Virus record (IMG/VR): IMGVR_UViG_2744054962_000001
Origin: a virus
Taxonomy: Duplodnaviria; Heunggongvirae; Uroviricota; Caudoviricetes
Reading direction: 5' to 3' (one strand)
DNA: 64,000 nucleotides
The notes under the pieces were generated by a model. The model searched no databases. It saw nothing but the letters and a program-made list of their open reading frames with translations, and had not been told where the DNA came from. Position 1 is the stretch's first letter. Each line of letters starts with the position of its first letter. The position numbers were made by a program, and so were the translations under genes. Shown here piece after piece: positions 3,028 through 31,722 of the stretch.

Positions 3028-3028
3028 T

Positions 3029-4246: not shown

Positions 4247-4254
4247 TTTAATTA

Positions 4255-5167: not shown

Positions 5168-5177
5168 CTAATACTAG

Positions 5178-5191: not shown

Positions 5192-5210
5192 AAAAAACAA
5201 AGGAAAGCAC

Positions 5211-6632: not shown

Positions 6633-7814
6633 ATGAGCCTTTATGTTATATCAACATTTAGGTTGGTCACAATATTGCCTGTTAAAAGTGGAATTATCGT
6701 GAGCGAGCTGAAAGAGCTAATTACCGAATTAGATTTTGAACAATGGTTGGATACTGAAGGTATCGTTTATCGACGTGGAGGCGTGAGTACTCGCGGTCGT
6801 GAAGTGAATATCAAGGAGTGTCCGGTATGCGGCAGCTCCAACTGGAAGGTATATTTCAATCTGACCAGTGGCGTCGGTAAATGCTTCGCTGGTGATCATC
6901 CCGAAGAGATTCAGTTCAATAAGCTGGTCTTCCTCAAGCACTACAGCGGTAAATCACGACGACAGTTCGAGGAATATGTGCAGAACGCTCTTCTTTCCCA
7001 GGGGTGGGCACCAAAGAAAGAAGAGATAGTGCTTGCAAGCACAGTCGAGTTAGAGGGACCAGTTGCACTCCCTCGTCATTACGATCTTCCTATAGATGGC
7101 CATCTTCCAGACTATCTGGTTGAACGAAATATATCGCCTGAAATGGCAAAGTATTTTGACCTACGATACTGCGTCGAAGGCAAGCACGCTTATGTAGATC
7201 CGTATACAGATCAGGTTAAAGGACAGATTTTCGATATGCGAATACTGATACCGGTTTACGATCTGGATGGGGTAATGAAGACATTTCAAGGACGAGACAT
7301 TACCGGTACAGCAGAACGCCGCTACCTCTTCCCTATGCAGCTGCCGGCGTCGGGTAAGTTTCTCTACAACGGCCACAACGCAGTCGGGAAACAAACAGTC
7401 GTTGTGTGTGAAGGGGCATTTGACGTAATGGGCGTGAAGCGAGCCATCTTCGACGAAAAGACGCTGAGGGATTATGTAGAGCCAATTGGCACGTTCGGGA
7501 TGCACTTGTCCGGAAATATGAATGAGGACGCTGAAGATCAGTTGGGCGCGTTCCTGACGCTCAAGGCGCGTGGATTACGCAACGTCATCATGATGTGGGA
7601 TAGCGAGAAGCAAGCGATCCGCAACACCATGTCGGCGGCCAAACGCCTCACCAGCATCGGACTAAATGTCAAAGTGGCCTGTCTGGGCGAAGAAGGTCTC
7701 GACCCCGGCGACGCGACGCCAGAGCAGATCCTCAAAGCCTATTATCGTGCCAAGCCTTACTCCAAACAGCTGGAGTTAAAATGCAAAGTGCTCGGTATCA
7801 AGTCACTCGTGTAG
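6633..7814 (+). CDS. DNA primase (DnaG-like zinc-binding domain plus TOPRIM)
   Basis: CPVCGSS...CFAGDH zinc-ribbon-like motif and TOPRIM-like VVVCEGAFDVMG; ATG at 6633 preceded by AAAAGAAAAACAC motif; ORF track start 6561 overlaps the upstream hairpin. Confidence 0.65.
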   Translation: MSLYVISTFRLVTILPVKSGIIVSELKELITELDFEQWLDTEGIVYRRGGVSTRGREVNIKECPVCGSSNWKVYFNLTSGVGKCFAGDHPEEIQFNKLVFLKHYSGKSRRQFEEYVQNALLSQGWAPKKEEIVLASTVELEGPVALPRHYDLPIDGHLPDYLVERNISPEMAKYFDLRYCVEGKHAYVDPYTDQVKGQIFDMRILIPVYDLDGVMKTFQGRDITGTAERRYLFPMQLPASGKFLYNGHNAVGKQTVVVCEGAFDVMGVKRAIFDEKTLRDYVEPIGTFGMHLSGNMNEDAEDQLGAFLTLKARGLRNVIMMWDSEKQAIRNTMSAAKRLTSIGLNVKVACLGEEGLDPGDATPEQILKAYYRAKPYSKQLELKCKVLGIKSLV

Positions 7815-17453: not shown

Positions 17454-19562
17454 ATGTCTAAAAAACGTTCCATCAAAGAGGTTCAGGACTTCCGTGACAG
17501 TGTAAAACGAGTAGTCGCTCTCCTTTCAGGTAAAAACATCCCTGTTGCAGAACGAGGGGACGACGCTTATGTACGCTATAACGATGATGGAGAGCCAATT
17601 CTCGTAAACATCCCATCAATCCCGGATAACGCAACACCGGCATTGATGAATGCTGTGCGCGGATTTCTCGATCATGAGGTTGCTCACATTTTGTTTACCG
17701 ATATTCGTGTGTCCAACAAAATGAGAGAAAAAGGACGCGTTCCTTCCTGGTCGCTATGGAATGCCTTAGAAGACGTGTTCATCGAGCGAAAAATGGGTCA
17801 GGTCTTTAACGGAACAAGACGTAATCTGATGGCAACTCAGCGCCTTATAATCGAAAAAGTCTTTAAACCAAAGGCTTCAGAGGCTATTGCTTATTGTGGC
17901 AAAGATCAGCGCGCGCTTTTTCTAAACTTCTTTCTCTGTCCGGTTGTAAGAGCCTGGGATGGCCAAGCACCGTTCGTAGATTTCATGGATGAATATTGGC
18001 CTGTCATTGAGAAACCAATTTCATTATTAAAAGAACATGGTATCGATGTGGCCGTGCGTAACATGTCTTGCACCGAGGATTGTGTAAAGGTGGCTGCGAC
18101 CATAGCTAAGATCCTCAAAGACACTGAAAGTGAAAGCAAAGGTAAGGAGTCAGCTCCGGGAAAAACTTCCGATCCTTCAGACGCTGACCAGACGGATGCC
18201 TCTGGAGAAAACAATGAAGATAACGAAGATCATGAGACACCCTCAGCGTTAGATAATCACAAATCTATCAAATCAGAATCACACAGTAAGCACAAACATG
18301 ATAATAATGACAGTGATGATTTAGATAATTCTGAATCATCAGAAACAATATTCGATGATACAGAAAATGATAAAGAGGTATCAGATTCTGATGCTTCTGA
18401 TAACGCGGCGTCAGAATCATTAACCGCTGACCACGAAAAAAGAAAAACGACAGAAGACGGCTCTTCAGATATTCCAACTCCGTCAAAAATGAGTCTGGAA
18501 GAGGCTTTAGAGGAGCTGGATAGCATAGAAGATGAAGTCGGAGGCATGACAGAAGATGCTCTATCCGAAACGATTAAAAGCGAGTTAACAGAAAGCTCGA
18601 AAAGCGAATACAGGCCATACAATCGCTCATACGACTTCATCGGCTCGATTGATCAGGCAGAAGCCCATATCAAACGGCTTATTAAAACATTCTCCGATAT
18701 TGATTTAGGAGGATGTCCAATCAGCCGCTATCGCATCGTTCCTGAAGGCAACCAGCTCTTCGACAAATATATTGAAAAGCATCTTTCGTCAGGTGTTTCG
18801 TCGACGCTGGCAAAAGACCTGGAGCGAGCAATAGCAAGCAGAAACAGAGTTCAGTTTATACCGGGCCAGCGTCGGGGGCGCATTCATGGTTCTAGTATCT
18901 ACAGATTAGCAATGAATGATGATCGCGTGTTTCGTAAAAAAGAAGAATCTAAAGCCGTTAACGCCTGTGTTCAACAAGTGATTGATTTATCAGGTTCAAT
19001 GAGGGGTATAACGATACAATTGGCTCTTGCAAGTGCATATACCATCGCCGATGCCCTTGATCGAATAAATGTTCCCAACATTATCACCGGCTTCACTACA
19101 TTTGGTAGTCATATGGCGGCAGGAGAACTTAAGGCTGTCAAGTATGAGTTCTCTCGCTTTGAATCTTTAATGCTACCTATCATCAAAAATTGGAATGAAA
19201 AGGTAAATTCTCGCGAAGTTCGCTCACGTATGGGGTGCGTAGGCTACACATTCCCACTTCTTAATAACGTGGATGGTGAAAGCATAGCCAGCCTTGCATC
19301 GTTATTTTCCGGTCGCATGGAGGACAGGAAGATCATGCTTGTTCTGAGCGATGGCGAGCCGTGGGCTGTTGGGAGAGGTTTTGACGCTCATTTGCGTTCG
19401 GTTGCGAAGCAAATTGAAACGCAGACTGACATTGATTTGATGGCAATTGGCATCATGACTGACGCACCGGAGAGATTTTACTCAAATCATGCCCTGGTAA
19501 CGAGCGTTGATAGTCTTGGTTCATCTGTAGTTACTGAACTATCTCGTATCATTTTAAAGTGA
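17454..19562 (+). CDS. CobT-like protein with acidic Ser/Asp-rich linker and C-terminal vWA domain
   Basis: MIDAS-like DLSGSM motif in C-terminal third; long acidic low-complexity middle; upstream of AAA+ CobS-like gene. Confidence 0.55.
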   Translation: MSKKRSIKEVQDFRDSVKRVVALLSGKNIPVAERGDDAYVRYNDDGEPILVNIPSIPDNATPALMNAVRGFLDHEVAHILFTDIRVSNKMREKGRVPSWSLWNALEDVFIERKMGQVFNGTRRNLMATQRLIIEKVFKPKASEAIAYCGKDQRALFLNFFLCPVVRAWDGQAPFVDFMDEYWPVIEKPISLLKEHGIDVAVRNMSCTEDCVKVAATIAKILKDTESESKGKESAPGKTSDPSDADQTDASGENNEDNEDHETPSALDNHKSIKSESHSKHKHDNNDSDDLDNSESSETIFDDTENDKEVSDSDASDNAASESLTADHEKRKTTEDGSSDIPTPSKMSLEEALEELDSIEDEVGGMTEDALSETIKSELTESSKSEYRPYNRSYDFIGSIDQAEAHIKRLIKTFSDIDLGGCPISRYRIVPEGNQLFDKYIEKHLSSGVSSTLAKDLERAIASRNRVQFIPGQRRGRIHGSSIYRLAMNDDRVFRKKEESKAVNACVQQVIDLSGSMRGITIQLALASAYTIADALDRINVPNIITGFTTFGSHMAAGELKAVKYEFSRFESLMLPIIKNWNEKVNSREVRSRMGCVGYTFPLLNNVDGESIASLASLFSGRMEDRKIMLVLSDGEPWAVGRGFDAHLRSVAKQIETQTDIDLMAIGIMTDAPERFYSNHALVTSVDSLGSSVVTELSRIILK

Positions 19563-19657
19563 ACAAAACAGCCTTAACGATAAGTAACCACTTACGATAG
19601 ATAATGATATATTTATATAAGAAGTTGAACGCTCATTAGAAAACAAAGGAAAAACGC

Positions 19658-20893
19658 ATGACTACTACTGCACTGCAAAATGAAAAAAATCCTTCTGATT
19701 ACCTTGTTTGCAAATGGTGCGGAAAATCATTTCACTATTTTAAGTCCCATGTAGCCAATGGTAATTGCGAGGGCATTCCTGAGTCAGTAAAAGATGCCGA
19801 TCCTGACACCGTACTGAAAATGTACACAACACAGTTTCCAGATGAGCCAACGCTATCGAAAAAGGCACTTGATGCAATTCAAGCTAAACGTGCCGAGCAA
19901 AAAAGCGAAATGACCAAATCATCTGGCGTGACCAGTAGCCCAGGCTACACAGGCACAGTTGAGTACAAGACAGATCTGGTCGCAGCTCACGAACTGCTAA
20001 ATGTAACGGTGAAAGAACTCGGAACAAAACGTGGGACGCCGCTCATGGTTAGCGTCAACGTCAATACGCCGTTTCCAGAGTTCGTTCCAGAAGTGAAGAA
20101 GGGCTACGTATATGGCGACTTCGAACTGATCAAAGACATTTTCATGATGCTTGAACTTGGCATACCTGGCTATTTGTGGGGTCATGCAGGAACAGGCAAA
20201 TCTTCATTGCCTACACAACTATGTGCTTTGCTCAATCGTCCGTTAATCCGTGCCCAACATACAGCATCAATGGAAGAGGCTCATGTTACGGGACAAATTC
20301 TGGCGCGTGATGGCTCTACGTATTTCGAGCCTGGCTTGCTTGCGCTCGCAATGAAGCATGGCTGGGTTTACCTCGCGGATGAATACGACTTTGCGTTTCC
20401 ACAAATTCTTGGCGTGTATCAGCCAGTGCTGGAAGGTGAAGCGTTAGTCATCAAAGAGGCAACTCCAGAATGGCGTCGCATTACTCCGCATGAACGGTTT
20501 GCTTTCATTGGCACTGGCAACACGAACGGATCTGGTGATGAAACCGGCTTGTACCAGGGTACAAACATCCAGAACGCCGCGAACTTTTCGCGTTTTGGCA
20601 TCGTTTCGAATGTGAAATACATGAGCAAAGAGGCAGAGATCAACATGTTGATAAATGCCGGTATCGTGGATGAATACGCAGAAAAGATGGTTAAGTTTGC
20701 CGGTATCGTTCGCGATGGATACGAAGAACACCTTATCAGTCAGCCAATTGGCCCTCGTGAACTTTTGTTGTCGGCCAAGATTGGAATGATGCGAGGCGAC
20801 TTTGTGACAGGTATTGAGCGTTCTTTCATTAACAAACTCCCTTCAGCTTCTGCACAAGCGGCTCGTGAAGTTGTTCAAAAAATATTTGGTTGA
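19658..20893 (+). CDS. CobS-like AAA+ ATPase (MoxR-type)
   Basis: Walker A GHAGTGKSS, Walker B-like VYLADEYD, 411 aa. Confidence 0.6.
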   Translation: MTTTALQNEKNPSDYLVCKWCGKSFHYFKSHVANGNCEGIPESVKDADPDTVLKMYTTQFPDEPTLSKKALDAIQAKRAEQKSEMTKSSGVTSSPGYTGTVEYKTDLVAAHELLNVTVKELGTKRGTPLMVSVNVNTPFPEFVPEVKKGYVYGDFELIKDIFMMLELGIPGYLWGHAGTGKSSLPTQLCALLNRPLIRAQHTASMEEAHVTGQILARDGSTYFEPGLLALAMKHGWVYLADEYDFAFPQILGVYQPVLEGEALVIKEATPEWRRITPHERFAFIGTGNTNGSGDETGLYQGTNIQNAANFSRFGIVSNVKYMSKEAEINMLINAGIVDEYAEKMVKFAGIVRDGYEEHLISQPIGPRELLLSAKIGMMRGDFVTGIERSFINKLPSASAQAAREVVQKIFG

Positions 20894-21099
20894 TCGTGCG
20901 TAAAGGATGTTTCGGCTCTCTTATCGCTGCTTCTGAAACTGGTAAGGCTTGTCTGGTATGTCCAGACAAGCCCGATTGTCACCAATCAGCAAAAGAAGTT
21001 GCGATTTCGATGTATGGGAAGTTCGTAGGCTTCCCCAATGACAAAATCAAAAAAACCATAAAGGTAAAAACACATGAAAGCACTGATGGTTCGAACTGA
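20890..21099 (+). CDS. Small Cys-rich hypothetical protein
   Basis: CLVCPDKPDC motif; overlaps both neighbours. Confidence 0.3.
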   Translation: MIVRKGCFGSLIAASETGKACLVCPDKPDCHQSAKEVAISMYGKFVGFPNDKIKKTIKVKTHESTDGSN

Positions 21100-24000
21100 C
21101 TTCTCACTTGGGGAGTCGGCTCTAAAAGCAGAAAACGCGGTGAAGATTGCCAGAGAAGCTGGCTACACCGCTGTAATTTCAGCAGATAGCATGAATATTG
21201 CGAGTGTTATTCCACTACAACGTGCCGCTGGTGACGACATGGCGGTTATTTGTGGTGTGAAACTAAATATCGTTGATGATCCTACATACGAGCACCGGGC
21301 TAAACTTGCTAAAGAATCTATGAGATGTATGGAATCATTAGAGCGGGGACGTAACTACTCGTTTACCGCTCTAATTAAAAATGAGCAAGGATATCGCGAC
21401 ATCTGCGAACTAATGACGGTGGCCAACACACGAGAACAGTTCTACTTTGTACCGCGTCTCTCGCTCGAACAGTTGGTTTCTACATATGCCAAAGGCAACA
21501 TCATCCTGCTCACTTCCGACATCGGTAGCGTGTTCCAACGCAACGATTTTGCAAAAATCATAAGCTCACTGATTACAGCGGGCGGGAAAGACAACTTCTA
21601 TAGCGTGGTTTATCCGCACCCTACCCCATTCTACGACCAGATTAACGTCCGAGCGATGAAAGTAGCCAGCGCACTGAAAATAGAGCCAGTAGCGTTCTAT
21701 CCCGCTTATTACGAATCGATCGACGATGCAGACATTAAAGACATTGCGCACATGGTTACGAACAACATAAAAATCGACCAGCCGCATCGTCTGCGTATCC
21801 CCCACCAGCGAGATAACGCCATCAATGGTCGTCGCCATCTCCTTGAGGCGCTTAAAGCCTTCTCCGTTCGCATGGATGTGCCGGTAACAGCTGCAATGGC
21901 CTCAACAACGCAGGACTCCATTATCGATGCCTGCACATGGCGCTGGCATGAATTGCCACCAGCACTGCCCAAGATGGCAGACGACGAACCTGCAACGCTG
22001 ATGAAACTGGCTGTTGCAGGGCTGCGTAAACGTCTTACCACAAAAGAGTTTGGATACACACCACCTGCTTCTGAGAACAGGGTTTATGTTGAGCGGCTAA
22101 AGTACGAAATGAACACGCTGACTCGCCTGGGATTTTGTGGTTACTTCCTGATGGTACGCGATCTGATGAATCACAGCCGTGAAACTGGCATTCCTGTCGG
22201 GCCTGGTCGTGGTTCCTCTGCCGGTTCTCTGGTGGCGTGGTGCATAGGCATAACCAACGTCGACCCAATCCGTCACGGTCTTCTGTTTGAGCGTTTCATC
22301 AACCCTGAGCGTCTCGACTTGCCGGATGCGGACTTGGACTTCAGCCAGGCACGTCGCCATGAGGTGATCGAGTATCTGAATGAACGCTACGGCGAAGATT
22401 ACGTTGCAGGCATTCCGAACTTCACCTACCTGGGCGCAGCCTCTGCACTACGTGACACCGCTCGTATTTATGGTGTGGAGTCCGCAGATATGGCGGTATC
22501 AAAAGAACTGAAGAACGTCGAGGATGATAGCCTTCCATTGGAAGAGCTGCGCGAACAACTGGCAAGTCTCGACAAATACGCAACAAAATATCCTGATGCA
22601 TTCAATGCAGCCTGCAAGTTACAAAGCCTTATGCGTGGCTTTGGTAGACATGCGGCAGGGATGATTGTAGCAGGTGTTCCTCTGACAGAACGTACACCGG
22701 TTGAGCGCCGTGGTGACGCGCGTTGTATCGCATTTGACAAGCGTTACTGCGAGGCTATGGGCCTAATTAAGCTGGACGTGCTTGGCCTGGCAACTCTCGA
22801 TTTGCTCGATAGTGCAAAACGCTACATAAAAGAGAACACAGGTGAAGATATCAATCTTGATGCCATTTCTCTTGAAGATCGCAAGGTGCTGGATGGTTTT
22901 GCTGCAGGGTATACACAGGGCGTATTCCAGCTGGAGTCCGGCCCCATGCGCAAGCTGCTTAAAGATCTAGGCGGTGGCATTGAGCCAATGAGCTTTAAAA
23001 CCGTTGTCGCCACGACCGCACTCTTCCGACCTGGCCCGATCCAATCCGGCATGTTGGACGACTATGTCTCCGTGGCCAAAGGCTTCATGGCTCCACATTC
23101 AATTCATCCGCGTCTTGAGGAAGTCACCCGGGAGACTAATGGTGTTTTGCTCTATCAGGAACAAATCATGCAAAGTTCCCGAGTACTTGCCGGGTTCTCT
23201 ATGGCCGAAGCAGACGCTCTGCGTTCCGCTATCGGTAAAAAGAACATGGATAAGATGAAAGCGATCGGCAGCGATTTTGTAGAACGAGCACAAGCAGGCT
23301 GGGTGACACTGTCACTCAAAAATGGAGGCACTGTAGAGGTTCACAAACACGCAAAACTGGATTGCTCAGACGGTAAGCGTAGAAGCTACAGCGAGGCTAT
23401 TAGTGACGGCATAGACTACGTGGAGATCGTCTCTGAACAAGAAGGTCTCAGTAAGGAAAAAGCCCAAGAAATATGGGACGCCTTTGAGAAGTTCGGTGGA
23501 TATGCCTTCAATAAATCACACTCCGTTGCTTATTCTTTAATCAGTTATCAGTCTATGTGGTTAAAGACACATTACCCTGCTGAGTTCTTCGCTGCTGCGC
23601 TCACCATTCTGGGCGAGGATAAGCACCAGGGGCTGGTTAAGGATGCGCTGACCTATGGCATTCGCGTATTGCCACCAGACGTTAACGTGTCATCTAACCG
23701 AATCGAGATCCGCACGCTTGAAGATGGCAGCCAGGTGCTGTATGCGCCATTCTCTGCTGTGAAAGGCTGTTCTGAAAATGGTTGTCAGGCAATTATGCGT
23801 GCGCGTGAGAAAGTTGGTGGCAAATTCGAGTCAGTGGCACAATTCGATGAAGCGGTCGAGAAGCGTGCATGTAACAGTCGTGTACGCGAGTCGCTTCATA
23901 AAGTAGGGGCTTTTGCGTCAATTGAGCCAGGCAGTCTGCCAGCAACTGATCCTGAACGACTGCGCGACCAGGCTGAGCTGATGGGCAATCTCATCATTGA

Positions 24001-24580
24001 CGCTGTTAAAGCATCACGTCCGTTCGAAATGAATCCTAAGCGTTCTGCCGAAATCAACGTACTCATGACACGTATGGCGGCTGAAATGGGCTTGGGTGAG
24101 GAGTTGATACGCCCGACTATTGGTATTAAACCCAAAATCATGATCATTCTGGACAATGCGAACGGCAATGACGCTCGTACCGGCTACTTCATGGAGAACG
24201 GATACGACGACTTTAAGGCAAAACTACTGACAGTTGGAGATCTGCGCATGGGCGATCTTTATGTCACGGGTGTTTGTAAGAAGGTTAAGGACAAAGAGAA
24301 AGACTATACCAAAGACGAGATAGGCCAGTTCACAGACTTTATGCGGGAAGAAATTAATCTTGTACGACCAACCTACATTTTGACGTGTGGTAGTCGTTCA
24401 ACCGCACTATTTAACAATAAGAGTAAACCATCAGATCTGATTGGTCGTAAGGAGTACTTCCCAGAGCTTGATGCAACCGTCTTCTACGGATTTAACCCGA
24501 ATATCCTGTACTTCCGACCGGAAGAAGGAGAGCGACTGGAGGCCATTCTGGCTGATATCGCGGAGACAATAAATAAGTAA
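21074..24580 (+). CDS. dnaE: DNA polymerase III alpha subunit (DnaE-type, PHP domain)
   Basis: 1168 aa; conserved blocks GYFLMVRDL, PVGPGRGSSAGSLVAW, LFERFINPER, GYAFNKSHSVAYSLISYQ match bacterial DnaE. Confidence 0.8.
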   Translation: MKALMVRTDFSLGESALKAENAVKIAREAGYTAVISADSMNIASVIPLQRAAGDDMAVICGVKLNIVDDPTYEHRAKLAKESMRCMESLERGRNYSFTALIKNEQGYRDICELMTVANTREQFYFVPRLSLEQLVSTYAKGNIILLTSDIGSVFQRNDFAKIISSLITAGGKDNFYSVVYPHPTPFYDQINVRAMKVASALKIEPVAFYPAYYESIDDADIKDIAHMVTNNIKIDQPHRLRIPHQRDNAINGRRHLLEALKAFSVRMDVPVTAAMASTTQDSIIDACTWRWHELPPALPKMADDEPATLMKLAVAGLRKRLTTKEFGYTPPASENRVYVERLKYEMNTLTRLGFCGYFLMVRDLMNHSRETGIPVGPGRGSSAGSLVAWCIGITNVDPIRHGLLFERFINPERLDLPDADLDFSQARRHEVIEYLNERYGEDYVAGIPNFTYLGAASALRDTARIYGVESADMAVSKELKNVEDDSLPLEELREQLASLDKYATKYPDAFNAACKLQSLMRGFGRHAAGMIVAGVPLTERTPVERRGDARCIAFDKRYCEAMGLIKLDVLGLATLDLLDSAKRYIKENTGEDINLDAISLEDRKVLDGFAAGYTQGVFQLESGPMRKLLKDLGGGIEPMSFKTVVATTALFRPGPIQSGMLDDYVSVAKGFMAPHSIHPRLEEVTRETNGVLLYQEQIMQSSRVLAGFSMAEADALRSAIGKKNMDKMKAIGSDFVERAQAGWVTLSLKNGGTVEVHKHAKLDCSDGKRRSYSEAISDGIDYVEIVSEQEGLSKEKAQEIWDAFEKFGGYAFNKSHSVAYSLISYQSMWLKTHYPAEFFAAALTILGEDKHQGLVKDALTYGIRVLPPDVNVSSNRIEIRTLEDGSQVLYAPFSAVKGCSENGCQAIMRAREKVGGKFESVAQFDEAVEKRACNSRVRESLHKVGAFASIEPGSLPATDPERLRDQAELMGNLIIDAVKASRPFEMNPKRSAEINVLMTRMAAEMGLGEELIRPTIGIKPKIMIILDNANGNDARTGYFMENGYDDFKAKLLTVGDLRMGDLYVTGVCKKVKDKEKDYTKDEIGQFTDFMREEINLVRPTYILTCGSRSTALFNNKSKPSDLIGRKEYFPELDATVFYGFNPNILYFRPEEGERLEAILADIAETINK

Positions 24581-24587
24581 TAAAGAA

Positions 24588-24610
24588 AACCCGCCTGTTG
24601 GCGGGTTTAT
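24588..24610 (+). terminator. Intrinsic terminator after dnaE
   Basis: AAACCCGCC tgtt GGCGGGTTT. Confidence 0.6.
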
Positions 24611-24883
24611 AAAGAATTATGGCGCTTGTTGAGGAAGTCACTCCTCTTACGCACTTTGTTTTGCCATGCCGGCAGTTAGCTTCTGCCTTTGACTATTCAT
24701 GCGGCAACCCCGCATTTCGCCACAATGGGCAATTCACTTTTATGGAATAAACTGGCCGTTGTGTCGATTTAATTAGCATGGCCTTACCATGCTAATTTAT
24801 TCAACTTGTACAATCCTACAAATCTATCCACTCAGGCTTACACCGTCTTCGTTATTGTAGAAATGAGGATCATCAGCGTTGAA

Positions 24884-25099
24884 TCAGCTTAGAGCAACGA
24901 CATTTGCTGCTGCTGGGCCTTTAGCACCATTCTCGATAGAGAATTCGACCTGCTGGCCTTCTTCCAAAGTGCGGAAATTATTACTCTGAATTGCCGAAAA
25001 ATGTACAAAAACATCTTTACTGCCATCAGCAGGAGAAATAAAGCCAAAGCCTTTATCAGAGTTAAACCATTTTACTAAACCAGTCATTTTATTAGACAT
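24884..25099 (-). CDS. Cold-shock protein (CspA family)
   Basis: [21 protein letters not shown]...[10 protein letters not shown] cold-shock domain with RNP motifs; ORF-track N-terminal extension is probably 5-prime UTR. Confidence 0.8.
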
Positions 25100-25403
25100 A
25101 GATATTACCTTCTTAATTTTGTGAGCCACATAGTGCGGCGAGAATTTGATCTGTATAGATTGGGACTTACTTAGGCACTTAAGGAGGAGGCTCACGAAGA
25201 AGGGAAATCAGAAGATAACACTGAACTGAGACTGCTTTACTAAAACTGCTTACATAAGGTCTGTCTTGCAAACCAACGATGCTATTAACGCATACCCCTT
25301 CTTTTCATGCAACCTTTATTTTTCAAAGATAACTAATTTTTGTCACCATTGGTTTAGTAAACGTTAACGAACCAGACGATGCCAGACACCTTTACAGAGA
25401 ACA

Positions 25404-25427
25404 GATGCCCGCCAATTGGCGGGCATC
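25404..25427. terminator. Bidirectional hairpin terminator
   Basis: GATGCCCGCC aatt GGCGGGCATC. Confidence 0.55.
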
Positions 25428-25428
25428 A

Positions 25429-25992
25429 TTATGCGCATTTCGCAATATCTTTGCGGCGTTTAATCAGTTTCTCCGCAATTTGCTCTATTTCGTTGAAATC
25501 TTTCGAGACGCTGTTTCGAAGCGCCAGATTCCATTTACTCAAAGTTCGGGCATTTTGGACAATTTGATCGCCCTCTTTAAGTCGTCCGTTATTCATGAGC
25601 CATTCAGCCACATCAGCCCAATCCCAGAGAGGAGACTGGCCTTTTATGCGTTGTACAGGGCTAGGGAAGTCGCCGCTTCCGCGCTTACCGTCTTTGAGCA
25701 ACGCCACTGCCTGGCGAGACAGGTCTGTCAGTTCCGCGATATCGCTTAAGCCCACAAGAGCCGAGTCGACGGATTCAACAATTGCACCGATACCGGCTGA
25801 TTCAATATTGTCGACCGCAGATGCGATAGCTGCATCAAGTGATTGTGCTTCGCGGTCAAATTCTACATAGACGGAGTTTCCATATGCGCAAATTAGCGCA
25901 TCGTCACAGCCGTTTTGGTACAGCGCGTCTTCCAGTCCTTCCGTCTCATACGATACGCCTGAGAGCGTCAGAGTGAAGTTATAAAGCGCCAT
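25429..25992 (-). CDS. Two-domain protein with C-terminal excisionase-like HTH; possible HicB-like antitoxin
   Basis: C-terminal IAELTDLSRQAVALL...GDFPSPV...LWDWADVAEWL resembles HTH_17/excisionase-type motif; sits downstream of a small gene on same strand. Confidence 0.4.
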   Translation of the reverse strand: MALYNFTLTLSGVSYETEGLEDALYQNGCDDALICAYGNSVYVEFDREAQSLDAAIASAVDNIESAGIGAIVESVDSALVGLSDIAELTDLSRQAVALLKDGKRGSGDFPSPVQRIKGQSPLWDWADVAEWLMNNGRLKEGDQIVQNARTLSKWNLALRNSVSKDFNEIEQIAEKLIKRRKDIAKCA

Positions 25993-26052
25993 AGTTTTCC
26001 TTTGAAGATAGTTGGACAGTTTCTGCAAAAGGCGGCTAATGCCGCCTTGAAA

Positions 26053-26277
26053 TCATTTACAACGATCAACCATTCGTTTGATCTGTTTGGCATGGTTTTC
26101 GGGATTACCCGGAGTCGACCATACGCTCATTTGGTGAGTTTTGTGTTCACCTTCTGGATTACCGCATCGCAGTCTGCAAAAACAATGTGCAGCACCACCA
26201 GCAGCTACCCAGATCCAGCCTTTACTTAATGCATAGTCAATGGCTGCTTGAATATGCTTATTCGGATGTTGCTTCAT
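26053..26277 (-). CDS. Small protein, possible HicA-like toxin
   Basis: 74 aa with GW...GGAAH motif loosely resembling HicA GW..GSHH; upstream of the HTH protein in toxin-first order. Confidence 0.3.
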   Translation of the reverse strand: MKQHPNKHIQAAIDYALSKGWIWVAAGGAAHCFCRLRCGNPEGEHKTHQMSVWSTPGNPENHAKQIKRMVDRCK

Positions 26278-26531
26278 TCGCCTCCGATAATAGTATTCTA
26301 TTCACAGTGTTGACATCTGTCAACGGCGACTGAATTTCATCCGTTCATGCCACACCCCCATCCATCTCATGTATGTGACCTAAAGATGGTCAGCACAGCT
26401 TACCAAAATAAGACAACTAATTATCTTCGGTGATCTCAATATCTTCCCCTGAACAAAGTTGACATGACGCCATAAACCCGTTCTCTGTTTGATATAATTG
26501 ATACAGATTTTATAAGTAGGAACCTATTAGA

Positions 26532-26963
26532 GTGAACACTGATATTTTTTCTAAAATCATGGCCGATCTGGAGTTCGACCGCGACAACCTTGAGGAAGTA
26601 TGGCGTAAACAGCCACGGCTTTTAATGGAGTATGGGTCAAAACTAGCGCAGGCAGATCGAGATGTCGCAGAGGCAAAACTTAACCTTGAAGCTGTTGAAG
26701 CAAAGCTATACGACACAGAGCGTAAGAACTTGAGTATGAACGGCATTAAGTTCAACGAGTCTGTACTGGACGCTAAGGTTAAAACAAACCCACAGTATCT
26801 GTCTAAACGGCAGAAGTTGGATGAAGCACGGCACATCGCAGACATATACAAACATGCTGTCGCCGCCTTTTCGCATCGCCGAGACATGATCGTTCAGGCG
26901 TCGAAGATGGCTATCGTTGAATTAGAGCGATTAGGCTCTGAACGCTTTATTACTCCCCGTTGA
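26532..26963 (+). CDS. Hypothetical protein (GTG start)
   Basis: 143-aa ORF upstream of SSB gene. Confidence 0.4.
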   Translation: MNTDIFSKIMADLEFDRDNLEEVWRKQPRLLMEYGSKLAQADRDVAEAKLNLEAVEAKLYDTERKNLSMNGIKFNESVLDAKVKTNPQYLSKRQKLDEARHIADIYKHAVAAFSHRRDMIVQASKMAIVELERLGSERFITPR

Positions 26964-27080
26964 TTTTTGATAGATAATAAGTAAGTACTGATCTATCATT
27001 TAACAGCTCGAAAGAGCCACGAATGAACGAAAGCCCAACGCGCATAGCGCCATCGGCCAAATCACAACAAGGAGAAACAC

Positions 27081-28109
27081 ATGTCTAAGACATTACTTGA
27101 TTTGCTTAACAAAACTCGTGAAGACATTGCCGCCAAACGTGGTAACAACGTTGATCTGACTCGCTTAAAAGACGGCGTCAACTATATCCGCATCTTCCCG
27201 AATAAAGACGACCCAAACGGTAAGTTCTTCCAGACTTTCGGTATGCACTACGTTAAGTATCAGAACGAGGAAGGTAAAGAAGCAACCAACGCTTATATTT
27301 GTGAGCAACATACTCACGGTCGCGCTTGTCAGCTATGCGAAATGGTGATGGAAGGTCGCGCTCGTCACAAGGGTAACAAAGCAATGGAAGAACGCATCGG
27401 TCAAATGCGTGCCACTCCTCGCTACCTGGTCAACGGCATTCTTTCTGCTCGTGAGGATTTCGCAGATGCTGAGAAATGCCAGTTAATCGAGCTGCCGTCT
27501 ACTGTATTCGATGATATCTGCAAAGCAATCACCGAAGACATCGCTGATGATATCGGCAATCCACTGAGCAAAGAGGAAGGCTACGCATTCCTGATTAAAC
27601 GTACTGGCTCTGGTCGCGATACCAAATATGACGTCTCGCCTAAGCGTAAAGTCTACAAAGGCGATATCGAAGATAAATTCTGGAACACCCAGCATGATCT
27701 GATCGCATACGCAAATCAGGCTGATGAAACTCGTCTTCTGTCGACAGTTCGCACTATGGGTCGTCTGATTGGCATCGCTGCACCAACTGCCGCAGCATCT
27801 GCACCAGCAATTTCCTCAACCGCGAAAACATCGGCTGCGGCACTACCTGGATTTGGCTCTGTCACTGGTCATACAGAAGGAGCGACGGCTGTAGCAACCG
27901 CGCACACACCGGCTTCTGAACCAACCAGTCTGGTTGATGAAGAAATCCTCCGTGCCGTTGAAACTGAATTTAAACCAGAGGCAAGTTCCGCTGCCGTTGC
28001 CGTATCAGTCAAAGAGTCTGAAGCAGTCGCAGCGACATCTGTAGCAACCGCATCTGCGACGGAAGATGAAGGTCTGGATGACCTACTGAGAGAGCTGGAC
28101 TCTCTGTAA
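27081..28109 (+). CDS. Single-stranded DNA-binding protein (T4 gp32-like)
   Basis: Zinc-binding His/Cys cluster CEQHTHGRACQLC and acidic Ala/Ser-rich C-terminal tail. Confidence 0.6.
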   Translation: MSKTLLDLLNKTREDIAAKRGNNVDLTRLKDGVNYIRIFPNKDDPNGKFFQTFGMHYVKYQNEEGKEATNAYICEQHTHGRACQLCEMVMEGRARHKGNKAMEERIGQMRATPRYLVNGILSAREDFADAEKCQLIELPSTVFDDICKAITEDIADDIGNPLSKEEGYAFLIKRTGSGRDTKYDVSPKRKVYKGDIEDKFWNTQHDLIAYANQADETRLLSTVRTMGRLIGIAAPTAAASAPAISSTAKTSAAALPGFGSVTGHTEGATAVATAHTPASEPTSLVDEEILRAVETEFKPEASSAAVAVSVKESEAVAATSVATASATEDEGLDDLLRELDSL

Positions 28110-28125
28110 TCCCATTACGTGACCA

Positions 28126-28155
28126 GTAAGGCGTCTACGGACGCCTTACTTTTTG
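28126..28155 (+). terminator. Intrinsic terminator (GGCGTC family)
   Basis: GTAAGGCGTC tacg GACGCCTTAC followed by TTTTT. Confidence 0.55.
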
Positions 28156-28169
28156 GAAGGAATGTACCG

Positions 28170-29114
28170 GTGAATTATCTCTTCGTAGATGGCAATAGCC
28201 TGGGTTATTACCACCAACAATCTGACAAATTGCACAACGGCGAAATGGAAGTACAGGCTGCTTTCGGCTTTGTTAAGAACGTCCGTCGTTATGCCTCCAT
28301 CCTCCATGCCCGACCTATGATTCTTTGGGATGGATTTAGTGACAAGCGTCGCGACTTTTACCCGGACTACAAAGCAAATCGCGACGACGATCCTGATATG
28401 AAAAAGATGAAGGAAGGCTTTGCTATCCAGAAGCCATACATCCTCAAAATGATGACCGCGCTTGGAGTTACCCAACTCATTGCAAAAGATGCAGAAGCGG
28501 ATGATCTGGCCGGGCTGCTGGTATCCCGCATGGCACCGCAGCCAACCGTTGAACACATCTATCTGTTAACAGGCGATAGCGACTGGCTTCAGTTAGTTCG
28601 TGAAAACGTAAGCTGGGTAAGCCTGCGTGAAGACGCCAAAAACAAGCAGGTTAATTTTGAGCAATTTGCGGAGCTGACAGGATTCGCCACGCCTCGCGCA
28701 TTTTTGGAAGCAAAAGCATTACAAGGCGATAACTCGGACAACATTAGCGGTGTTGGTGGCATTGGTGCTGGCGGTGCGAAAGAGCTGCTGCATGAATGGG
28801 GAAGTGTCGCAACGATGGTACGCGGCATCAACGACGGCTCAATCGTGGTTAATAAAGGGCGTCATAAGACCGCCTTCAACAAACTAGCGAAGAATGCCTT
28901 CAACGAGAAAACAGGCTGTCGAATGCTCGAAGCGTTCAAGAGAAACATCACGCTAATGAACCTGATTGAGACGAAGTTTCCGCCTACCGAAATCGAAACA
29001 ATCAAAGGCAATCGTGACGTGAAAGCATTCGAGCAACTGTGCTACGAGCTGAATTTCCGTTCGTTCCTTGAAGACCTTGAAGTGTTTGTTCTTCCATTCG
29101 AAAGGTATTGCTAA
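28170..29114 (+). CDS. 5-prime to 3-prime exonuclease / flap endonuclease
   Basis: N-terminal NYLFVDGNSLGYY, EADDLAG acidic cluster, H3TH motif GDNSDNISGVGGIGAGGAKELL; GTG start at 28170 downstream of the terminator. Confidence 0.7.
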   Translation: MNYLFVDGNSLGYYHQQSDKLHNGEMEVQAAFGFVKNVRRYASILHARPMILWDGFSDKRRDFYPDYKANRDDDPDMKKMKEGFAIQKPYILKMMTALGVTQLIAKDAEADDLAGLLVSRMAPQPTVEHIYLLTGDSDWLQLVRENVSWVSLREDAKNKQVNFEQFAELTGFATPRAFLEAKALQGDNSDNISGVGGIGAGGAKELLHEWGSVATMVRGINDGSIVVNKGRHKTAFNKLAKNAFNEKTGCRMLEAFKRNITLMNLIETKFPPTEIETIKGNRDVKAFEQLCYELNFRSFLEDLEVFVLPFERYC

Positions 29115-29380
29115 TGCTTAAATCGATTATTAATGGCGCTACAACCACCCCTACCCAACTGGCAAAAGAGATTGTCTTTTATCACGGTGAGTACGCTGTC
29201 ATCGCACTGCCGTCAATTCTGGGCGCTGCCGGAATGAAAGCGACAGATCGCGAGTTTGGATTAGTCAGCGAGCAGGTCGTAAAAATCCTCGCTCGTGTAT
29301 CCAGACTCCTTAACCACGATGCGATTGTATTCGACGAATCCGCCGCTTTAAAACGAATCAACGAAACAAAAGGAGCCTGA
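29108..29380 (+). CDS. Hypothetical protein
   Basis: 90-aa ORF between flap endonuclease and recombinase genes. Confidence 0.4.
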   Translation: MLMLKSIINGATTTPTQLAKEIVFYHGEYAVIALPSILGAAGMKATDREFGLVSEQVVKILARVSRLLNHDAIVFDESAALKRINETKGA

Positions 29381-29382
29381 TC

Positions 29383-31722
29383 ATGGCAAAAGGAAAATCC
29401 GCACTGGCACTTGCTCTGAAAAAGAAAATCGGTAGCAACGACGAAATTCAGAAAGTAACTCATTGGATTGATACAGGCTTTCCACCGTTAAACAAAGCTA
29501 TTTCTGGTCGTTACGATGGCGGCTTCCCATGTGGTCGTATCGTCGAAGTATTCGGTCCTCCAAGCGCGGGGAAATGTGTTACCGCAGACACCATGCTGCT
29601 GACGGAGCGTGGAATGGTAACAGTGAAAGAGTTGTTTGAGATTGAAGGGTACAAAGCGACATGCACTACTCGCGATGTAGAGCATAACGTTGGACTCATC
29701 AATGAAAATGGCGTGATAGAGAAGACCTCACACCTGACATGGAACAACCGTCGCAAATTCAAGCGTATTAAGCTGGCATCAGGCGGTTATATCGAGGCTA
29801 CGTTCCGTCACCCAATCCGTGTGGTTGACGACTTAGGTAATGTCGTCTGGCGACATGCTGAAAAAATCAGTGTAGGCGACACGATTCCTTCAATGGTTGG
29901 CACACATCAATTCGGCGATCAGCACCTGGATGCCAATATCGCAAAACTGATGGGCTATTTAATTGCTGACGGATACGTGGCCTCTGAAAATTCAGTGAAT
30001 TTTTCTAACACAGATCCTTTCATCAAGGATGAGTACTACCGCCTCATTTCGCTGGTATCAGACAAGATGCCAGTTACGAGAAAACATAACGGCTCGGAAG
30101 ACCATGTGCTGTTTAGCAAAGAGGTGCGTTCGCTGCTTTTTAAAGAATATGGTCTGGAGTATGAGAAAGCTGCTGGCAAGCAGGTTCCGTTGAGTGTGCG
30201 TCGCGCCAATAGCGAGGCTCAAATTGCATTCCTTCGCGGCTACTTTGAGCTGGAATGCCACGTCAATGATGGTCGCTGCATTGAGGTTGTGAGCGCGAGT
30301 GGGCTGCTGCTACAGCAAATTCGCCTCATGCTCCTGAATCTGGGGATTACGTCAACTATCTCTGAAAAACACGTCGCGGGTTATGAAAATACATATTACC
30401 GGCTGTCATTCAGTGGCTCTAATTACGACCTTTTTCTGTCAACGATTGGTTTCGAATCTCCGGCACGTTTATCAGTGGCAACCAAACGGGACATTGGTTT
30501 TGACCGCACTTACTCAGGCTATGTTCCGCACATCAGCGGCTTAGTGAAATCACTCTACGAGTCGCTCACCAAGACCACCCGTGAAGACTACGCTCTGGTA
30601 GACCACGTTATTGGCCGCGGCGATCGTGTCGGAATAGACAAACTGCGAGAAATCTATGTCTCCTTCATTGGCAGAAAGAATCGTTTTAACGAGCATCTGT
30701 TTGCACAACTGGCAGCGGTAATTGGCTCTAACTTGTTCTACGACGAAGTCGTGGCTATTGAGGAAGGTGAAGCACCAACGTTCGACGTAGCGATGCCGGA
30801 AACACACTCTTTCTGGTCTAACGGGATTATCAGCCACAACACATTCCTTGCAACAGCAGCGATGATCTCCGCTCAAAAACAAGATGGTCTGGCGGTATTC
30901 CTCGATCATGAAAACAGTTTTGACGTTGGCCTGGCTGTAGCCAATGGCCTGAACGCAGATGAGGATGACGGTCAGTGGGTATACAAGCAGCCTGATACCT
31001 TCGAAGACTCTGTAGAGTTGATCGGCACAATACTTAAATTGGTACGTGATGAAGAGCTTATCCCCGAATCAGCACCTATCTGTATCGTGGCTGACTCTCT
31101 TGCGTCTATGGTTCCGAACTCCAAAGCCGAGAAGTTCGAAAAGATGGCTGAAGGCACTGCCAAAGACAAAGATCAGCTAAACATGAACGACAATACGGCA
31201 CTGGCTCGTGCGACGAGTGCGAACTTCCCTACTCTGGCTTTGTGGGCACGCAAATACAACGCCTGCATCATCTTCTTGAATCAGGTTCGCACAAAAATCG
31301 GTGTAATGTTTGGCGACCCTACTACGTCGCCAGGTGGAGATTCACCGAAGTTCTACGCATCTGTACGTATCCGTCTTGGTGCATCGGTGATGAAGGATGG
31401 TAAAGAGAAGATCGGTCAGGACGTAGGCGCAGAATGCATCAAAAACAAAGTTGCACCACCGTATGGCAAATGCACCTGGAAATTCTACTTCGATCCTACT
31501 CGTGGCCTCGACGTTATCGAGTCGCTCGTCGAGTACATGCTGGAAGAAGGATACCTGCCAAAGAACGCCAGCGGTCGAGTAGAAATTGGTGACAAGAAAT
31601 ACACCAAATCACAGATCGTCGAGATGTATCGGGAGAAGCCACTGGCTGAAATCATTGCGGCTTTGCAGGCAATCGACGACCGAAGAGCAAAAGACAACCC
31701 CACCGAGTCAGTAGAAGAGTAA
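29383..31722 (+). CDS. RecA/UvsX-like recombinase interrupted by an intein
   Basis: P-loop GPPSAGK split from TFLATAAMISAQ by 422 aa; extein about 357 aa. Confidence 0.75.
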   Translation: MAKGKSALALALKKKIGSNDEIQKVTHWIDTGFPPLNKAISGRYDGGFPCGRIVEVFGPPSAGKCVTADTMLLTERGMVTVKELFEIEGYKATCTTRDVEHNVGLINENGVIEKTSHLTWNNRRKFKRIKLASGGYIEATFRHPIRVVDDLGNVVWRHAEKISVGDTIPSMVGTHQFGDQHLDANIAKLMGYLIADGYVASENSVNFSNTDPFIKDEYYRLISLVSDKMPVTRKHNGSEDHVLFSKEVRSLLFKEYGLEYEKAAGKQVPLSVRRANSEAQIAFLRGYFELECHVNDGRCIEVVSASGLLLQQIRLMLLNLGITSTISEKHVAGYENTYYRLSFSGSNYDLFLSTIGFESPARLSVATKRDIGFDRTYSGYVPHISGLVKSLYESLTKTTREDYALVDHVIGRGDRVGIDKLREIYVSFIGRKNRFNEHLFAQLAAVIGSNLFYDEVVAIEEGEAPTFDVAMPETHSFWSNGIISHNTFLATAAMISAQKQDGLAVFLDHENSFDVGLAVANGLNADEDDGQWVYKQPDTFEDSVELIGTILKLVRDEELIPESAPICIVADSLASMVPNSKAEKFEKMAEGTAKDKDQLNMNDNTALARATSANFPTLALWARKYNACIIFLNQVRTKIGVMFGDPTTSPGGDSPKFYASVRIRLGASVMKDGKEKIGQDVGAECIKNKVAPPYGKCTWKFYFDPTRGLDVIESLVEYMLEEGYLPKNASGRVEIGDKKYTKSQIVEMYREKPLAEIIAALQAIDDRRAKDNPTESVEE
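29575..30840 (+). mobile_element. Intein with LAGLIDADG homing endonuclease domain inserted in the RecA P-loop
   Basis: Begins with Cys after GPPSAGK, ends SHN followed by Thr; LAGLIDADG-like blocks LMGYLIADGYV and FLRGYFELECHV. Confidence 0.7.

What the first reader, a model, noticed from the sequence alone, without database searches (positions are those of the whole stretch)
29575..30840. 422-aa LAGLIDADG intein inserted in the P-loop of the RecA-like recombinase
The Walker A motif reads GPPSAGK then Cys, and resumes as TFLATAAM after a segment ending SHN. This matches canonical intein boundaries (Cys1, terminal His-Asn, +1 Thr), and two LAGLIDADG-like blocks are present. P-loop insertion sites are intein hotspots; this marks a selfish element inside an essential recombination gene.
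Basis: partly seen in the sequence, partly recalled or inferred. Interest (0 to 1): 0.55.

Follow-up and report, generated by a model that had tools for sequence, protein, structure and literature searches.

The report
Known intein in phage-plasmid RecA
The 1,266-base segment is a self-splicing, self-spreading protein insert (an intein with a LAGLIDADG homing endonuclease) in the ATP-binding loop of the RecA/UvsX-like recombinase of an SSU5-like phage-plasmid of E. coli; the call is correct, but this intein was catalogued in 2015 and sits in hundreds of sequenced plasmids.

Summary
ORF 29383-31722 (+, 779 aa) is a RecA/UvsX-like recombinase whose Walker A motif GPPSAGK|T is split by a 422-aa insert (nt 29575-30840; protein aa 65-486). 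The insert has Cys1, a TxxH block B, two LAGLIDADG motifs (D132, E227), block F, a terminal His-Asn and Thr+1. Pfam, NCBIfam, an AlphaFold model and Foldseek all identify a bifunctional intein/homing endonuclease.

Intein-less alleles in sister phage-plasmids (Escherichia phage CMS-2020a, SSU5) give a 357-aa protein identical to the predicted ligated exteins.

Population data argue for ongoing homing:
- Intein dS is 0.09 where extein dS is 1.2-1.9.
- All 19 intein-bearing alleles share the flanks GCGGGGAAA|ACATTCCT, with donor-type changes confined to about 20 nt around the junction.
- Intein dN/dS is about 0.16, and 0.18-0.23 in the endonuclease region.

It is not new. Topilina et al. 2015 (PMC4513877) list this "RecA insertion point c2 (65-486)" intein in E. 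coli (including strain MS 145-7, recovered here at 99.3%), Enterobacter and Salmonella. RefSeq names some copies "intein-containing recombinase RecA". What I add is context: every E. coli copy is on a plasmid, and about 45% of E. coli carriers of this recA have the intein.

The parts
29383..29574 (+). N-extein of the RecA/UvsX-like recombinase (aa 1-64), ending in the Walker A residues GPPSAGK. An AAGGAG ribosome-binding site lies 8 nt upstream of the ATG.
   Evidence: It is contiguous with the C-extein in the intein-less alleles L001 and L003.
29575..30840 (+). Complete intein, 422 aa, 47.5 kDa (protein aa 65-486).
   Evidence: Pfam Intein_splicing and LAGLIDADG_3. NCBIfam intein N- and C-terminal models. 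AlphaFold model with pLDDT 81 and pTM 0.85. Best Foldseek hits are the TliVMA intein 7qss (E 7.8e-20), PI-PfuI and PI-PkoII. The segment is exactly absent from CMS-2020a and SSU5.
29575..29919 (+). N-terminal half of the Hint splicing domain (intein aa 1-115). It contains block A (C1, nt 29575-29613) and block B (GGYIEATFRHPIRV with T76 and H79, nt 29782-29823).
29920..30699 (+). Nested LAGLIDADG homing-endonuclease region (intein aa about 116-375). Motif 1 is LMGYLIADG (D132, nt 29947-29973). Motif 2 is LRGYFELEC (E227, nt 30232-30258). A conserved block LLLQQIRLMLLNLGI lies at nt 30304-30348.
   Evidence: Pfam LAGLIDADG_3. PDB sequence hits to the endonuclease domains of PI-PkoII and the VMA inteins. 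Foldseek hits to I-DmoI. pN/pS is 0.18-0.23, binomial P=5e-5.
30700..30840 (+). C-terminal part of the Hint domain (intein aa 376-422). Block F is PTFDVAMPETHSFWSNG (D404, H411; nt 30775-30825). Block G is IISHN (H421, N422; nt 30826-30840).
   Evidence: PDB sequence hit to the DnaB mini-intein 4o1r over aa 379-422.
30841..31722 (+). C-extein (aa 487-779 plus stop). It starts with Thr+1, the Walker A Thr, followed by FLATAAM, and carries the rest of the RecA ATPase core.
   Evidence: Pfam RecA best stretch 484-703. PHROG 97 UvsX-like recombinase, 1.4e-83..

Best explanation
The segment is a mobile class-1 intein with a nested LAGLIDADG homing endonuclease, sitting in the P-loop of the RecA/UvsX-like recombinase of an SSU5-like phage-plasmid.

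Splicing (inferred from intein chemistry). The gene is translated as an 86.5-kDa precursor. That precursor cannot bind ATP, because the Walker A Lys64 and Thr487 are 422 residues apart. The steps are:
1. Cys65 makes an N-to-S acyl shift.
2. The hydroxyl of Thr487, the P-loop Thr itself, attacks the thioester.
3. Asn486 cyclises, assisted by His485 and by the block B (T140, H143) and block F (D468, H475) residues.
4. An O-to-N shift restores GPPSAGKT.
The products are a 39.0-kDa active recombinase and a free 47.5-kDa intein.

Homing (mechanism inferred, population signature shown). The free intein acts as a monomeric LAGLIDADG endonuclease with catalytic D196 and E291 (protein numbering). It cuts intein-less recA alleles at or near the GK|T codons when two phage-plasmids meet in one cell. 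Repair from the intein-bearing copy copies the intein in, together with about 10-20 nt of flanking synonymous sites.

Shown here: the anatomy, the fold, precise empty-site alleles, horizontal spread, short co-conversion tracts and purifying selection. Inferred: the splicing chemistry and the cleavage activity.
For: Anatomy and family:
- Exact boundaries and motifs.
- Pfam and NCBIfam intein, LAGLIDADG and RecA hits above their cutoffs.
- AlphaFold model with pTM 0.85, matching the TliVMA, PI-PfuI, PI-PkoII and PI-SceI inteins, mini-inteins including Pho RadA and Mtu RecA, and I-DmoI.
- C1, T76, H79, D404 and P401-F413 are conserved at 90% or more among relatives that are only 29-44% identical.

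Empty sites:
- CMS-2020a recA is 1074 nt. It differs from the window's joined exteins at 14 nt positions and encodes an identical 357-aa protein. Three of the 14 differences lie within 10 nt of the junction.
- SSU5 is also intein-less.

Homing signature:
- Window versus L073 and L075-L082: extein dS is 1.2-1.9 and intein dS is 0.09.
- Five alleles carry identical inteins while their extein dS is 0.05-0.2.
- Intein-bearing and intein-less alleles are mixed within extein clusters of under 2% divergence.
- All 19 intein-bearing alleles share GCGGGGAAA|ACATTCCT. None of 64 intein-less alleles has it.
- L077+ versus its nearest intein-less relative: 8 differences within 21 nt of the junction, against 7 in the rest of the first 1030 nt compared.

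Selection:
- Intein dN/dS is 0.16-0.18.
- pN/pS is 0.15 in the Hint parts and 0.18-0.23 in the endonuclease region. Binomial P values are 6e-8, 4e-4 and 5e-5.
- No stop codon or frameshift occurs in any of the 19 copies.

Spread:
- The intein is in 248 PLSDB plasmids across Escherichia, Klebsiella, Enterobacter, Citrobacter and other genera.
- 114 of 251 E. coli genomes carrying this recA have it.

Literature:
- The same intein is listed as RecA insertion point c2 (65-486).
Against: - No experiment shows splicing or DNA cleavage for this intein. The only paper found identified it computationally and modelled the precursor.
- The AlphaFold model is weak (pLDDT below 50) over the last residues, 409-412 and 416-422, which contain block G.
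- The extein divergence used in the dS contrast predates invasion, so it does not by itself prove that the spliced recombinase is needed.
- The shared flanks could partly reflect target-site requirements rather than co-conversion.
- Intein-bearing and intein-less alleles coexist at roughly equal frequency. That means homing is either infrequent or many empty sites are resistant.
Confidence: 0.87

Rival explanations
1. The intein still splices, but its endonuclease is no longer active. The element is inherited vertically with the phage-plasmid and moves only by ordinary recombination.
For: No cleavage assay exists. Roughly half of the alleles remain intein-less. Related inteins with decayed endonuclease regions do exist: P0007, P0012 and P0013.
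Against: Intein dS is more than tenfold lower than extein dS across lineages. Donor-type tracts are confined to about 20 nt around the junction. The endonuclease region has pN/pS of 0.18-0.23, and both catalytic acidic residues are retained in all 19 copies. General recombination would be expected to drag in long flanking tracts, not about 20 nt.
Confidence: 0.08
2. The insert is a dead in-frame insertion. The recombinase is a pseudogene product that never matures.
For: The phage-plasmid tolerates loss of the gene: IS1 sits in the intein in CP059946, L083 lacks the N-extein, and L089 has a TGA stop in block F.
Against: All catalytic splicing residues are intact. The Hint parts have pN/pS of 0.15, P=4e-4. 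The ORF is intact in all 19 copies examined. The exact protein was seen on at least 1000 contigs, in a cluster of 1496 members.
Confidence: 0.02
3. Besides being selfish, the intein works as a conditional post-translational switch. Splicing, and so recombinase activity, would be gated by a signal such as ssDNA or DNA damage, redox state through Cys1/Cys30, or temperature. This would parallel the P. horikoshii RadA intein at the same P-loop point. It does not exclude the best explanation.
For: The insertion point is the same as the conditionally splicing Pho RadA intein. The unspliced precursor necessarily lacks a Walker A motif. The intein has four Cys residues, at positions 1, 30, 228 and 235.
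Against: There are no data on this intein's splicing behaviour. Intein-less alleles encode the identical mature protein in sister plasmids, so the element does well without any such switch. The authors of PMC4513877 report that Pho-RadA-like intein-extein packing is sterically infeasible for the E. coli RecA precursor.
Confidence: 0.12

Closest known systems
RecA 'insertion point c2' intein of E. coli, Enterobacter and Salmonella (Topilina, Novikova, Stanger, Banavali & Belfort 2015, NAR; PMC4513877, Table 1)
   Same: It is the same element. The protein coordinates are identical (65-486) and the insertion point is the same P-loop point. E. coli MS 145-7, listed there as E1IXC8, carries the gene at 99.3% nucleotide identity to the window (H47).
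   Different: [quoted passage not shown] The word 'phage' does not occur in its text. Here every E. coli copy is on an SSU5-like phage-plasmid, inside a T4-like UvsY, gp32, exonuclease and recombinase module. No splicing or homing data were published.
Pyrococcus horikoshii RadA intein (insertion point c1; PDB 4e2t)
   Same: It has the same insertion point, between the Walker A Lys and Thr of a RecA-superfamily ATPase. It shares the Hint fold (ranks 21-22).
   Different: Pho RadA carries a mini-intein of about 170 aa with no endonuclease. The paper reports little sequence similarity between c1 and c2 inteins and infers independent invasions. Conditional splicing is shown for Pho RadA and untested here.
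P-loop inteins of Herelleviridae phages: Twort-like UvsW helicase inteins (annotated in Staphylococcus phage Twillingate) and the Bacillus phage fHSPT3 RecA intein
   Same: They are 31-34% identical over the full 422 aa. They are also bifunctional LAGLIDADG inteins and are also inserted at GK|[T/S] of a Walker A motif: GGGK|C...HN|S in fHSPT3 RecA and NGGK|C...HN|T in the helicase.
   Different: Their hosts are Firmicutes phages. The host protein of the helicase copies is SF2 UvsW-like rather than RecA. Sequence identity is only about one third.
Structurally characterised bifunctional inteins: TliVMA (7qss), PI-PfuI (1dq3), PI-PkoII (2cw7), PI-SceI (1vde)
   Same: The overall architecture matches: a Hint domain split by a double-motif LAGLIDADG domain. 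Foldseek E values run from 7.8e-20 to 1.5e-8, with query-normalised TM-scores up to 0.68. Sequence hits fall over the endonuclease domain.
   Different: Identity is 10-21%. These are archaeal or yeast inteins in other host proteins (V-ATPase, RNR, PolB).
Mycobacterium tuberculosis RecA intein (PI-MtuI; PDB 2in0 splicing domain)
   Same: It is an intein with a LAGLIDADG endonuclease in a RecA protein. Its Hint domain is recovered by fold search (ranks 38, 44 and 47).
   Different: It sits at a different insertion point, site a (for example residues 252-691 in M. africanum), not in the P-loop. Its sequence is unrelated.

Membership tests
Intein (class 1, Hint-domain protein-splicing element) | An in-frame insertion within a host ORF, with host homology continuing on both sides and precise empty-site alleles. 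| tested here: met
   A single 779-aa ORF. RecA homology lies on both sides. The CMS-2020a and SSU5 alleles lack exactly nt 29575-30840.
Intein (class 1, Hint-domain protein-splicing element) | Block A N-terminal nucleophile (Cys or Ser at position 1). | tested here: met
   Cys65 is intein C1, and it is conserved in every aligned relative that covers the site.
Intein (class 1, Hint-domain protein-splicing element) | Block B TxxH motif. | tested here: met
   T76-F-R-H79. Both residues are at least 90% conserved in the alignment.
Intein (class 1, Hint-domain protein-splicing element) | Blocks F and G with a terminal His-Asn, and a +1 Cys, Ser or Thr. | tested here: met
   PTFDVAMPETHSFWSNG followed by IISHN|T (D404, H411, H421, N422, Thr+1). 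TIGR01443 intein_Cterm scores 17.8 bits against a cutoff of 15.6.
Intein (class 1, Hint-domain protein-splicing element) | Hint fold. | tested here: met
   PF14890 scores 44.3 bits against a cutoff of 35.8. The AlphaFold model matches solved inteins and mini-inteins. Block G itself is modelled with low confidence.
Intein (class 1, Hint-domain protein-splicing element) | Autocatalytic excision with ligation of the exteins. | not testable with these tools
   This needs expression with a western blot or mass spectrometry. Indirect support only: pN/pS of 0.15 on the Hint parts.
LAGLIDADG homing endonuclease (monomeric, double-motif) | Two LAGLIDADG motifs, each with an acidic residue at motif position 8. 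| tested here: met
   LMGYLIADG (D132) and LRGYFELEC (E227). PF14528 scores 63.4 bits against a cutoff of 22.5, with two matched stretches. The acidic residues are conserved in most relatives.
LAGLIDADG homing endonuclease (monomeric, double-motif) | Two alpha-beta-beta-alpha-beta-beta-alpha half-domains. | tested here: met
   Model helices 120-131 and 213-227 end at the catalytic residues. Foldseek hits to I-DmoI have target-normalised TM-scores of 0.54-0.60.
LAGLIDADG homing endonuclease (monomeric, double-motif) | Site-specific cleavage of the intein-less allele, leading to homing. | not testable with these tools
   Indirect evidence only: the intein-versus-extein dS contrast, shared flanks, short co-conversion tracts and a patchy distribution.
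RecA/RadA insertion point c (c2) intein allele of PMC4513877 | The same insertion point and coordinates (65-486) in the same host-protein family from the same organisms. | tested here: met
   Coordinates 65-486 match Table 1. The strain MS 145-7 plasmid matches at 99.3% over 100% of the gene (H47).
Bacterial RecA (equivalog TIGR02012) as host protein | A score above the equivalog cutoff for bona fide RecA. | tested here: not met
   TIGR02012 scores 132.6 bits against a cutoff of 325.3. NF007072 'intein-containing recombinase RecA' scores 100.8 against 1024. The host is a RecA-superfamily protein (Pfam RecA 125.5 bits, cutoff 27). It is best described as a phage UvsX-like recombinase (PHROG 97, 1.4e-83).

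The most novel reading that the evidence does not exclude
The intein may currently be sweeping through SSU5-like phage-plasmids of clinical Enterobacteriaceae, and it may also gate the plasmid's recombinase post-translationally. In that reading, splicing would respond to DNA damage, ssDNA or redox state, so that recombination activity switches on only at induction or lytic replication. This would be a mesophilic, phage-borne counterpart of the Pho RadA switch at the identical P-loop point.
Probability: 0.1. Interest if true: 0.5.

Novelty: already known. Interest (0 to 1): 0.18.

Why it matters
As a discovery it matters little. The intein was catalogued in 2015, and annotation pipelines label it as a Hint, LAGLIDADG or intein-containing RecA protein.

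Three modest points remain useful:
1. The "first E. coli intein" belongs to a phage-plasmid, not to E. coli itself. About 2% of complete E. coli genomes carry it (114 of 5426).
2. Hundreds of near-identical intein-bearing and intein-less alleles occur in defined extein backgrounds. This gives a clean natural system for measuring homing rates, co-conversion tract length and target-site resistance in mesophilic, genetically tractable hosts.
3. Gene annotations are inconsistent. The whole recombinase is often named "LAGLIDADG family homing endonuclease", and PHROG 9666 is "unknown function". These should be corrected to intein-containing recombinase.

Tried and rejected
- Literature searches for 'intein' with 'SSU5' found nothing. 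'Intein' with 'phage-plasmid' gave only irrelevant hits. The phrase 'coli RecA intein' occurs in a single paper, PMC4513877.
- A single-sequence search of the large protein collection returned only 14 hits because of its word index. That was enough to show related inteins at the same P-loop point, so I ran no profile search.
- I considered a group I intron or a free-standing endonuclease gene. I rejected this because the reading frame is continuous and Hint blocks flank the endonuclease.
- I considered a second intein elsewhere in the window. tblastn of the intein against the window found only itself.
- I considered invasion of the chromosomal recA. None of the 253 E. coli matches is on a chromosome.
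- I looked at L083, where a rearrangement breakpoint falls at the homing site, as possible evidence of mis-repaired endonuclease cuts. I could not exclude an assembly chimera.
- I checked base composition for a foreign signature. Intein GC is 0.482 and extein GC is 0.487, so this is uninformative.
Full report
**Observation**

ORF 29383..31722 on the + strand encodes 779 aa. The Walker A motif reads VFGPPSAGK. It is followed by Cys65, 422 residues ending ...IISHN486, and then T487-FLATAAM. Removing it leaves a 357-aa protein with an intact GPPSAGKT P-loop.

Family searches on the whole protein agree:
- Pfam: RecA 3.3e-36, LAGLIDADG_3 2.4e-17 and Intein_splicing 2.1e-11 over residues 73-486. All are above their gathering scores.
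- NCBIfam: the intein N- and C-terminal domain models both pass their cutoffs.
- PHROGs: a full-length match to phrog_9666 ("unknown function", 779/779 positions), and phrog_97, UvsX-like recombinase, 1.4e-83.

**Anatomy**

I aligned the intein with relatives that are 29-44% identical and located the motifs.

| Feature | Sequence | Key residues (intein numbering) |
|---|---|---|
| Block A | CVTADTMLLTERG | C1 |
| Block B | GGYIEATFRHPIRV | T76, H79 |
| LAGLIDADG motif 1 | LMGYLIADG | D132 |
| LAGLIDADG motif 2 | LRGYFELEC | E227 |
| Conserved block | LLLQQIRLMLLNLGI | |
| Block F | PTFDVAMPETHSFWSNG | D404, H411 |
| Block G | IISHN | H421, N422 |
| C-extein start | TFLATAAM | Thr+1 |

An AlphaFold2 model built from an 11-sequence alignment has mean pLDDT 81 and pTM 0.85. 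Confidence is low only at residues 309-313, 409-412 and 416-422. Foldseek against the PDB gives three groups of hits:
- Bifunctional inteins come first: TliVMA 7qss (E 7.8e-20, TM 0.68), PI-PfuI, PI-PkoII and PI-SceI.
- Mini-inteins match the Hint part, including Pho RadA and Mtu RecA.
- I-DmoI matches the endonuclease part.

Sequence search of the PDB agrees.

**Genomic context**

The window is an SSU5-like phage-plasmid. The gene is 98.4% identical to Escherichia phages PhiR41_1 and Cyrano and 90% identical to Klebsiella phage vB_KpnS_p4727. It is 99.9% identical to E. coli plasmid NZ_CP124469.

In Cyrano the neighbouring genes, in order, are DNA polymerase III alpha, HicAB, a UvsY-like mediator, a gp32-like SSB, an exonuclease, this "RecA", an SPFH protein and RepA. 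The host protein is therefore the recombinase of a T4-like recombination module, not the cellular RecA. It scores far below the RecA equivalog cutoff: TIGR02012 gives 132.6 bits against 325.3. All 253 matches in 5,426 complete E. coli genomes lie on plasmids.

**Empty sites**

Escherichia phage CMS-2020a carries a 1074-nt allele. It differs from the window's joined exteins at 14 nt positions and encodes an identical 357-aa protein. The junction reads ...GGGAAA|ACGTTC..., exactly where the intein sits. Three of the 14 differences lie at -10, -7 and +3 relative to the junction. SSU5 itself is also intein-less.

**Evidence for homing**

A scan of IMG/VR with the extein protein returned 80 loci: 62 intein-less, 17 intein-bearing and one rearranged.

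- **Divergence contrast.** Between the window and L073 or L075-L082, synonymous divergence is 1.2-1.9 in the exteins but 0.09 in the intein. Five alleles carry identical inteins on exteins that differ at dS 0.05-0.2.
- **Patchy distribution.** Intein-bearing and intein-less alleles are interleaved within extein clusters of under 2% divergence.
- **Shared flanks.** All 19 intein-bearing alleles, whatever their background, share the flanks GCGGGGAAA|ACATTCCT. None of 64 intein-less alleles has this 17-mer.
- **Short co-conversion tract.** L077+ differs from its closest intein-less relative at 8 positions within 21 nt of the junction, but at only 7 in the rest of the first 1030 nt compared.
- **Purifying selection.** Intein dN/dS is 0.16-0.18. 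pN/pS is 0.15 in the Hint parts and 0.18-0.23 in the endonuclease region. Binomial P values are 6e-8 for the whole intein, 4e-4 for the Hint parts and 5e-5 for the endonuclease region. No copy has a stop codon or frameshift.

Taken together, this is the classical signature of an endonuclease-driven element that is still active. Cleavage itself is inferred, not shown.

**Prevalence**

- 114 of the 251 E. coli complete genomes that carry this recA have the full-length, intein-bearing gene.
- In PLSDB the intein is in 248 plasmids: Escherichia 123, Klebsiella 71, Enterobacter 41, Citrobacter 6, Shigella 2, Cronobacter 2, Kluyvera 1, Salmonella 1 and one uncultured bacterium. 731 plasmids match the gene in total. 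These include 63 Yersinia plasmids, none with the intein, and 40 Salmonella plasmids.
- The exact 779-aa protein was seen on at least 1000 contigs and belongs to a cluster of 1496 members.

**Relatives**

- Metagenomic inteins 41-45% identical occupy the same GK|C...HN|T point. Some are in a syntenic phage recombinase: L089 has polIII-alpha, gp32, exonuclease and recA in the same order. Others are in bacterial-type RecA with the motif GPESSGK|...|TTLTLQ (P0007, P0009). Several of these have decayed endonuclease regions.
- Inteins 31-34% identical sit at GK|[ST] in Bacillus phage fHSPT3 RecA and in Twort-like UvsW helicases, where they are annotated as inteins.
- A related mini-intein sits in a RuvB P-loop (P0014).

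**Prior knowledge**

Topilina et al. 2015 (PMC4513877) list "c2 (65-486)" RecA inteins in eight E. coli strains, two Enterobacter strains and one Salmonella strain. [quoted passage not shown]

Strain MS 145-7 from that table is hit H47 here, at 99.3% identity over the whole gene. RefSeq names copies "LAGLIDADG family homing endonuclease", "hint domain-containing protein" or "intein-containing recombinase RecA". The paper does not mention phage. I found no later paper on this intein.

**Verdict**

The novelty class is "already known". The residual value lies in three things: the phage-plasmid context, the population evidence for ongoing homing with very short co-conversion tracts, and inconsistent database naming. 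Splicing and cleavage remain experimentally untested.

Noticed in passing
window 24859-25277 (-) and the ORF just downstream on the - strand: There is a full-length match to the Rfam cspA thermoregulator (RF01766, 187 bits). It is followed by a 71-aa CspA-like ORF ([20 protein letters not shown]...). The region lies between the DNA polymerase III alpha gene and hicAB and is left unannotated in phage Cyrano. So the phage-plasmid carries a cold-shock protein gene with its RNA thermometer.
   Followed up: partly
window 13339-13586 (+): A cluster of three tRNA genes: Asn(gtt), Thr(tgt) and Ser(tga). They are also annotated in phage Cyrano.
   Followed up: no
L083 (IMGVR_UViG_2724678972_000008), about 2940-3060: The recA C-extein is fused, out of frame, to a PhoH-like P-loop fragment (...ATGEAGCW*; Pfam PhoH E=0.028). 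The fusion falls within about 10 nt of the intein insertion point. About 17 kb, equivalent to window 13763-30838, is replaced by about 2 kb of unrelated DNA. This could be mis-repair of an endonuclease cut between two P-loop-coding sequences, or an assembly chimera.
   Followed up: partly
L087 (E. coli plasmid CP059946.1), locus 1632-2402: IS1 (771 nt, with an 8-nt target duplication AATTTTTC and InsA/InsB-type ORFs) is inserted in the intein at about codon 144. This knocks out the recombinase in a plasmid that is otherwise maintained.
   Followed up: yes
L089 (ENA ERZ27257820 k141_7541), about 7430-7440: A syntenic polIII-alpha, gp32, exonuclease and recA module carries a 44%-identical intein at the same site. 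An in-frame TGA replaces the conserved Trp of block F (HSF*SNG), so the gene was called as two ORFs. This is either a nonsense mutation or a sequencing error.
   Followed up: partly
L088 (GCA_027484465.1, 550-kb contig), 4001-6166; also P0014: A chromosomal-type RecA (GPESSGK|C...SHN|TTLTLQ) carries a related intein whose LAGLIDADG motif 1 region is deleted. A RuvB homologue carries a related mini-intein at GLGK|C...HN|TTL. The Hint lineage therefore recurs in the P-loops of different ATPases.
   Followed up: partly
L023, L024 and L074 (IMG/VR): These recA alleles are mosaic. The N-extein is 96-99% identical to the window, while the C-extein is only 84-87% identical. This points to recombination breakpoints inside the gene near the P-loop, independent of intein presence.
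   Followed up: no
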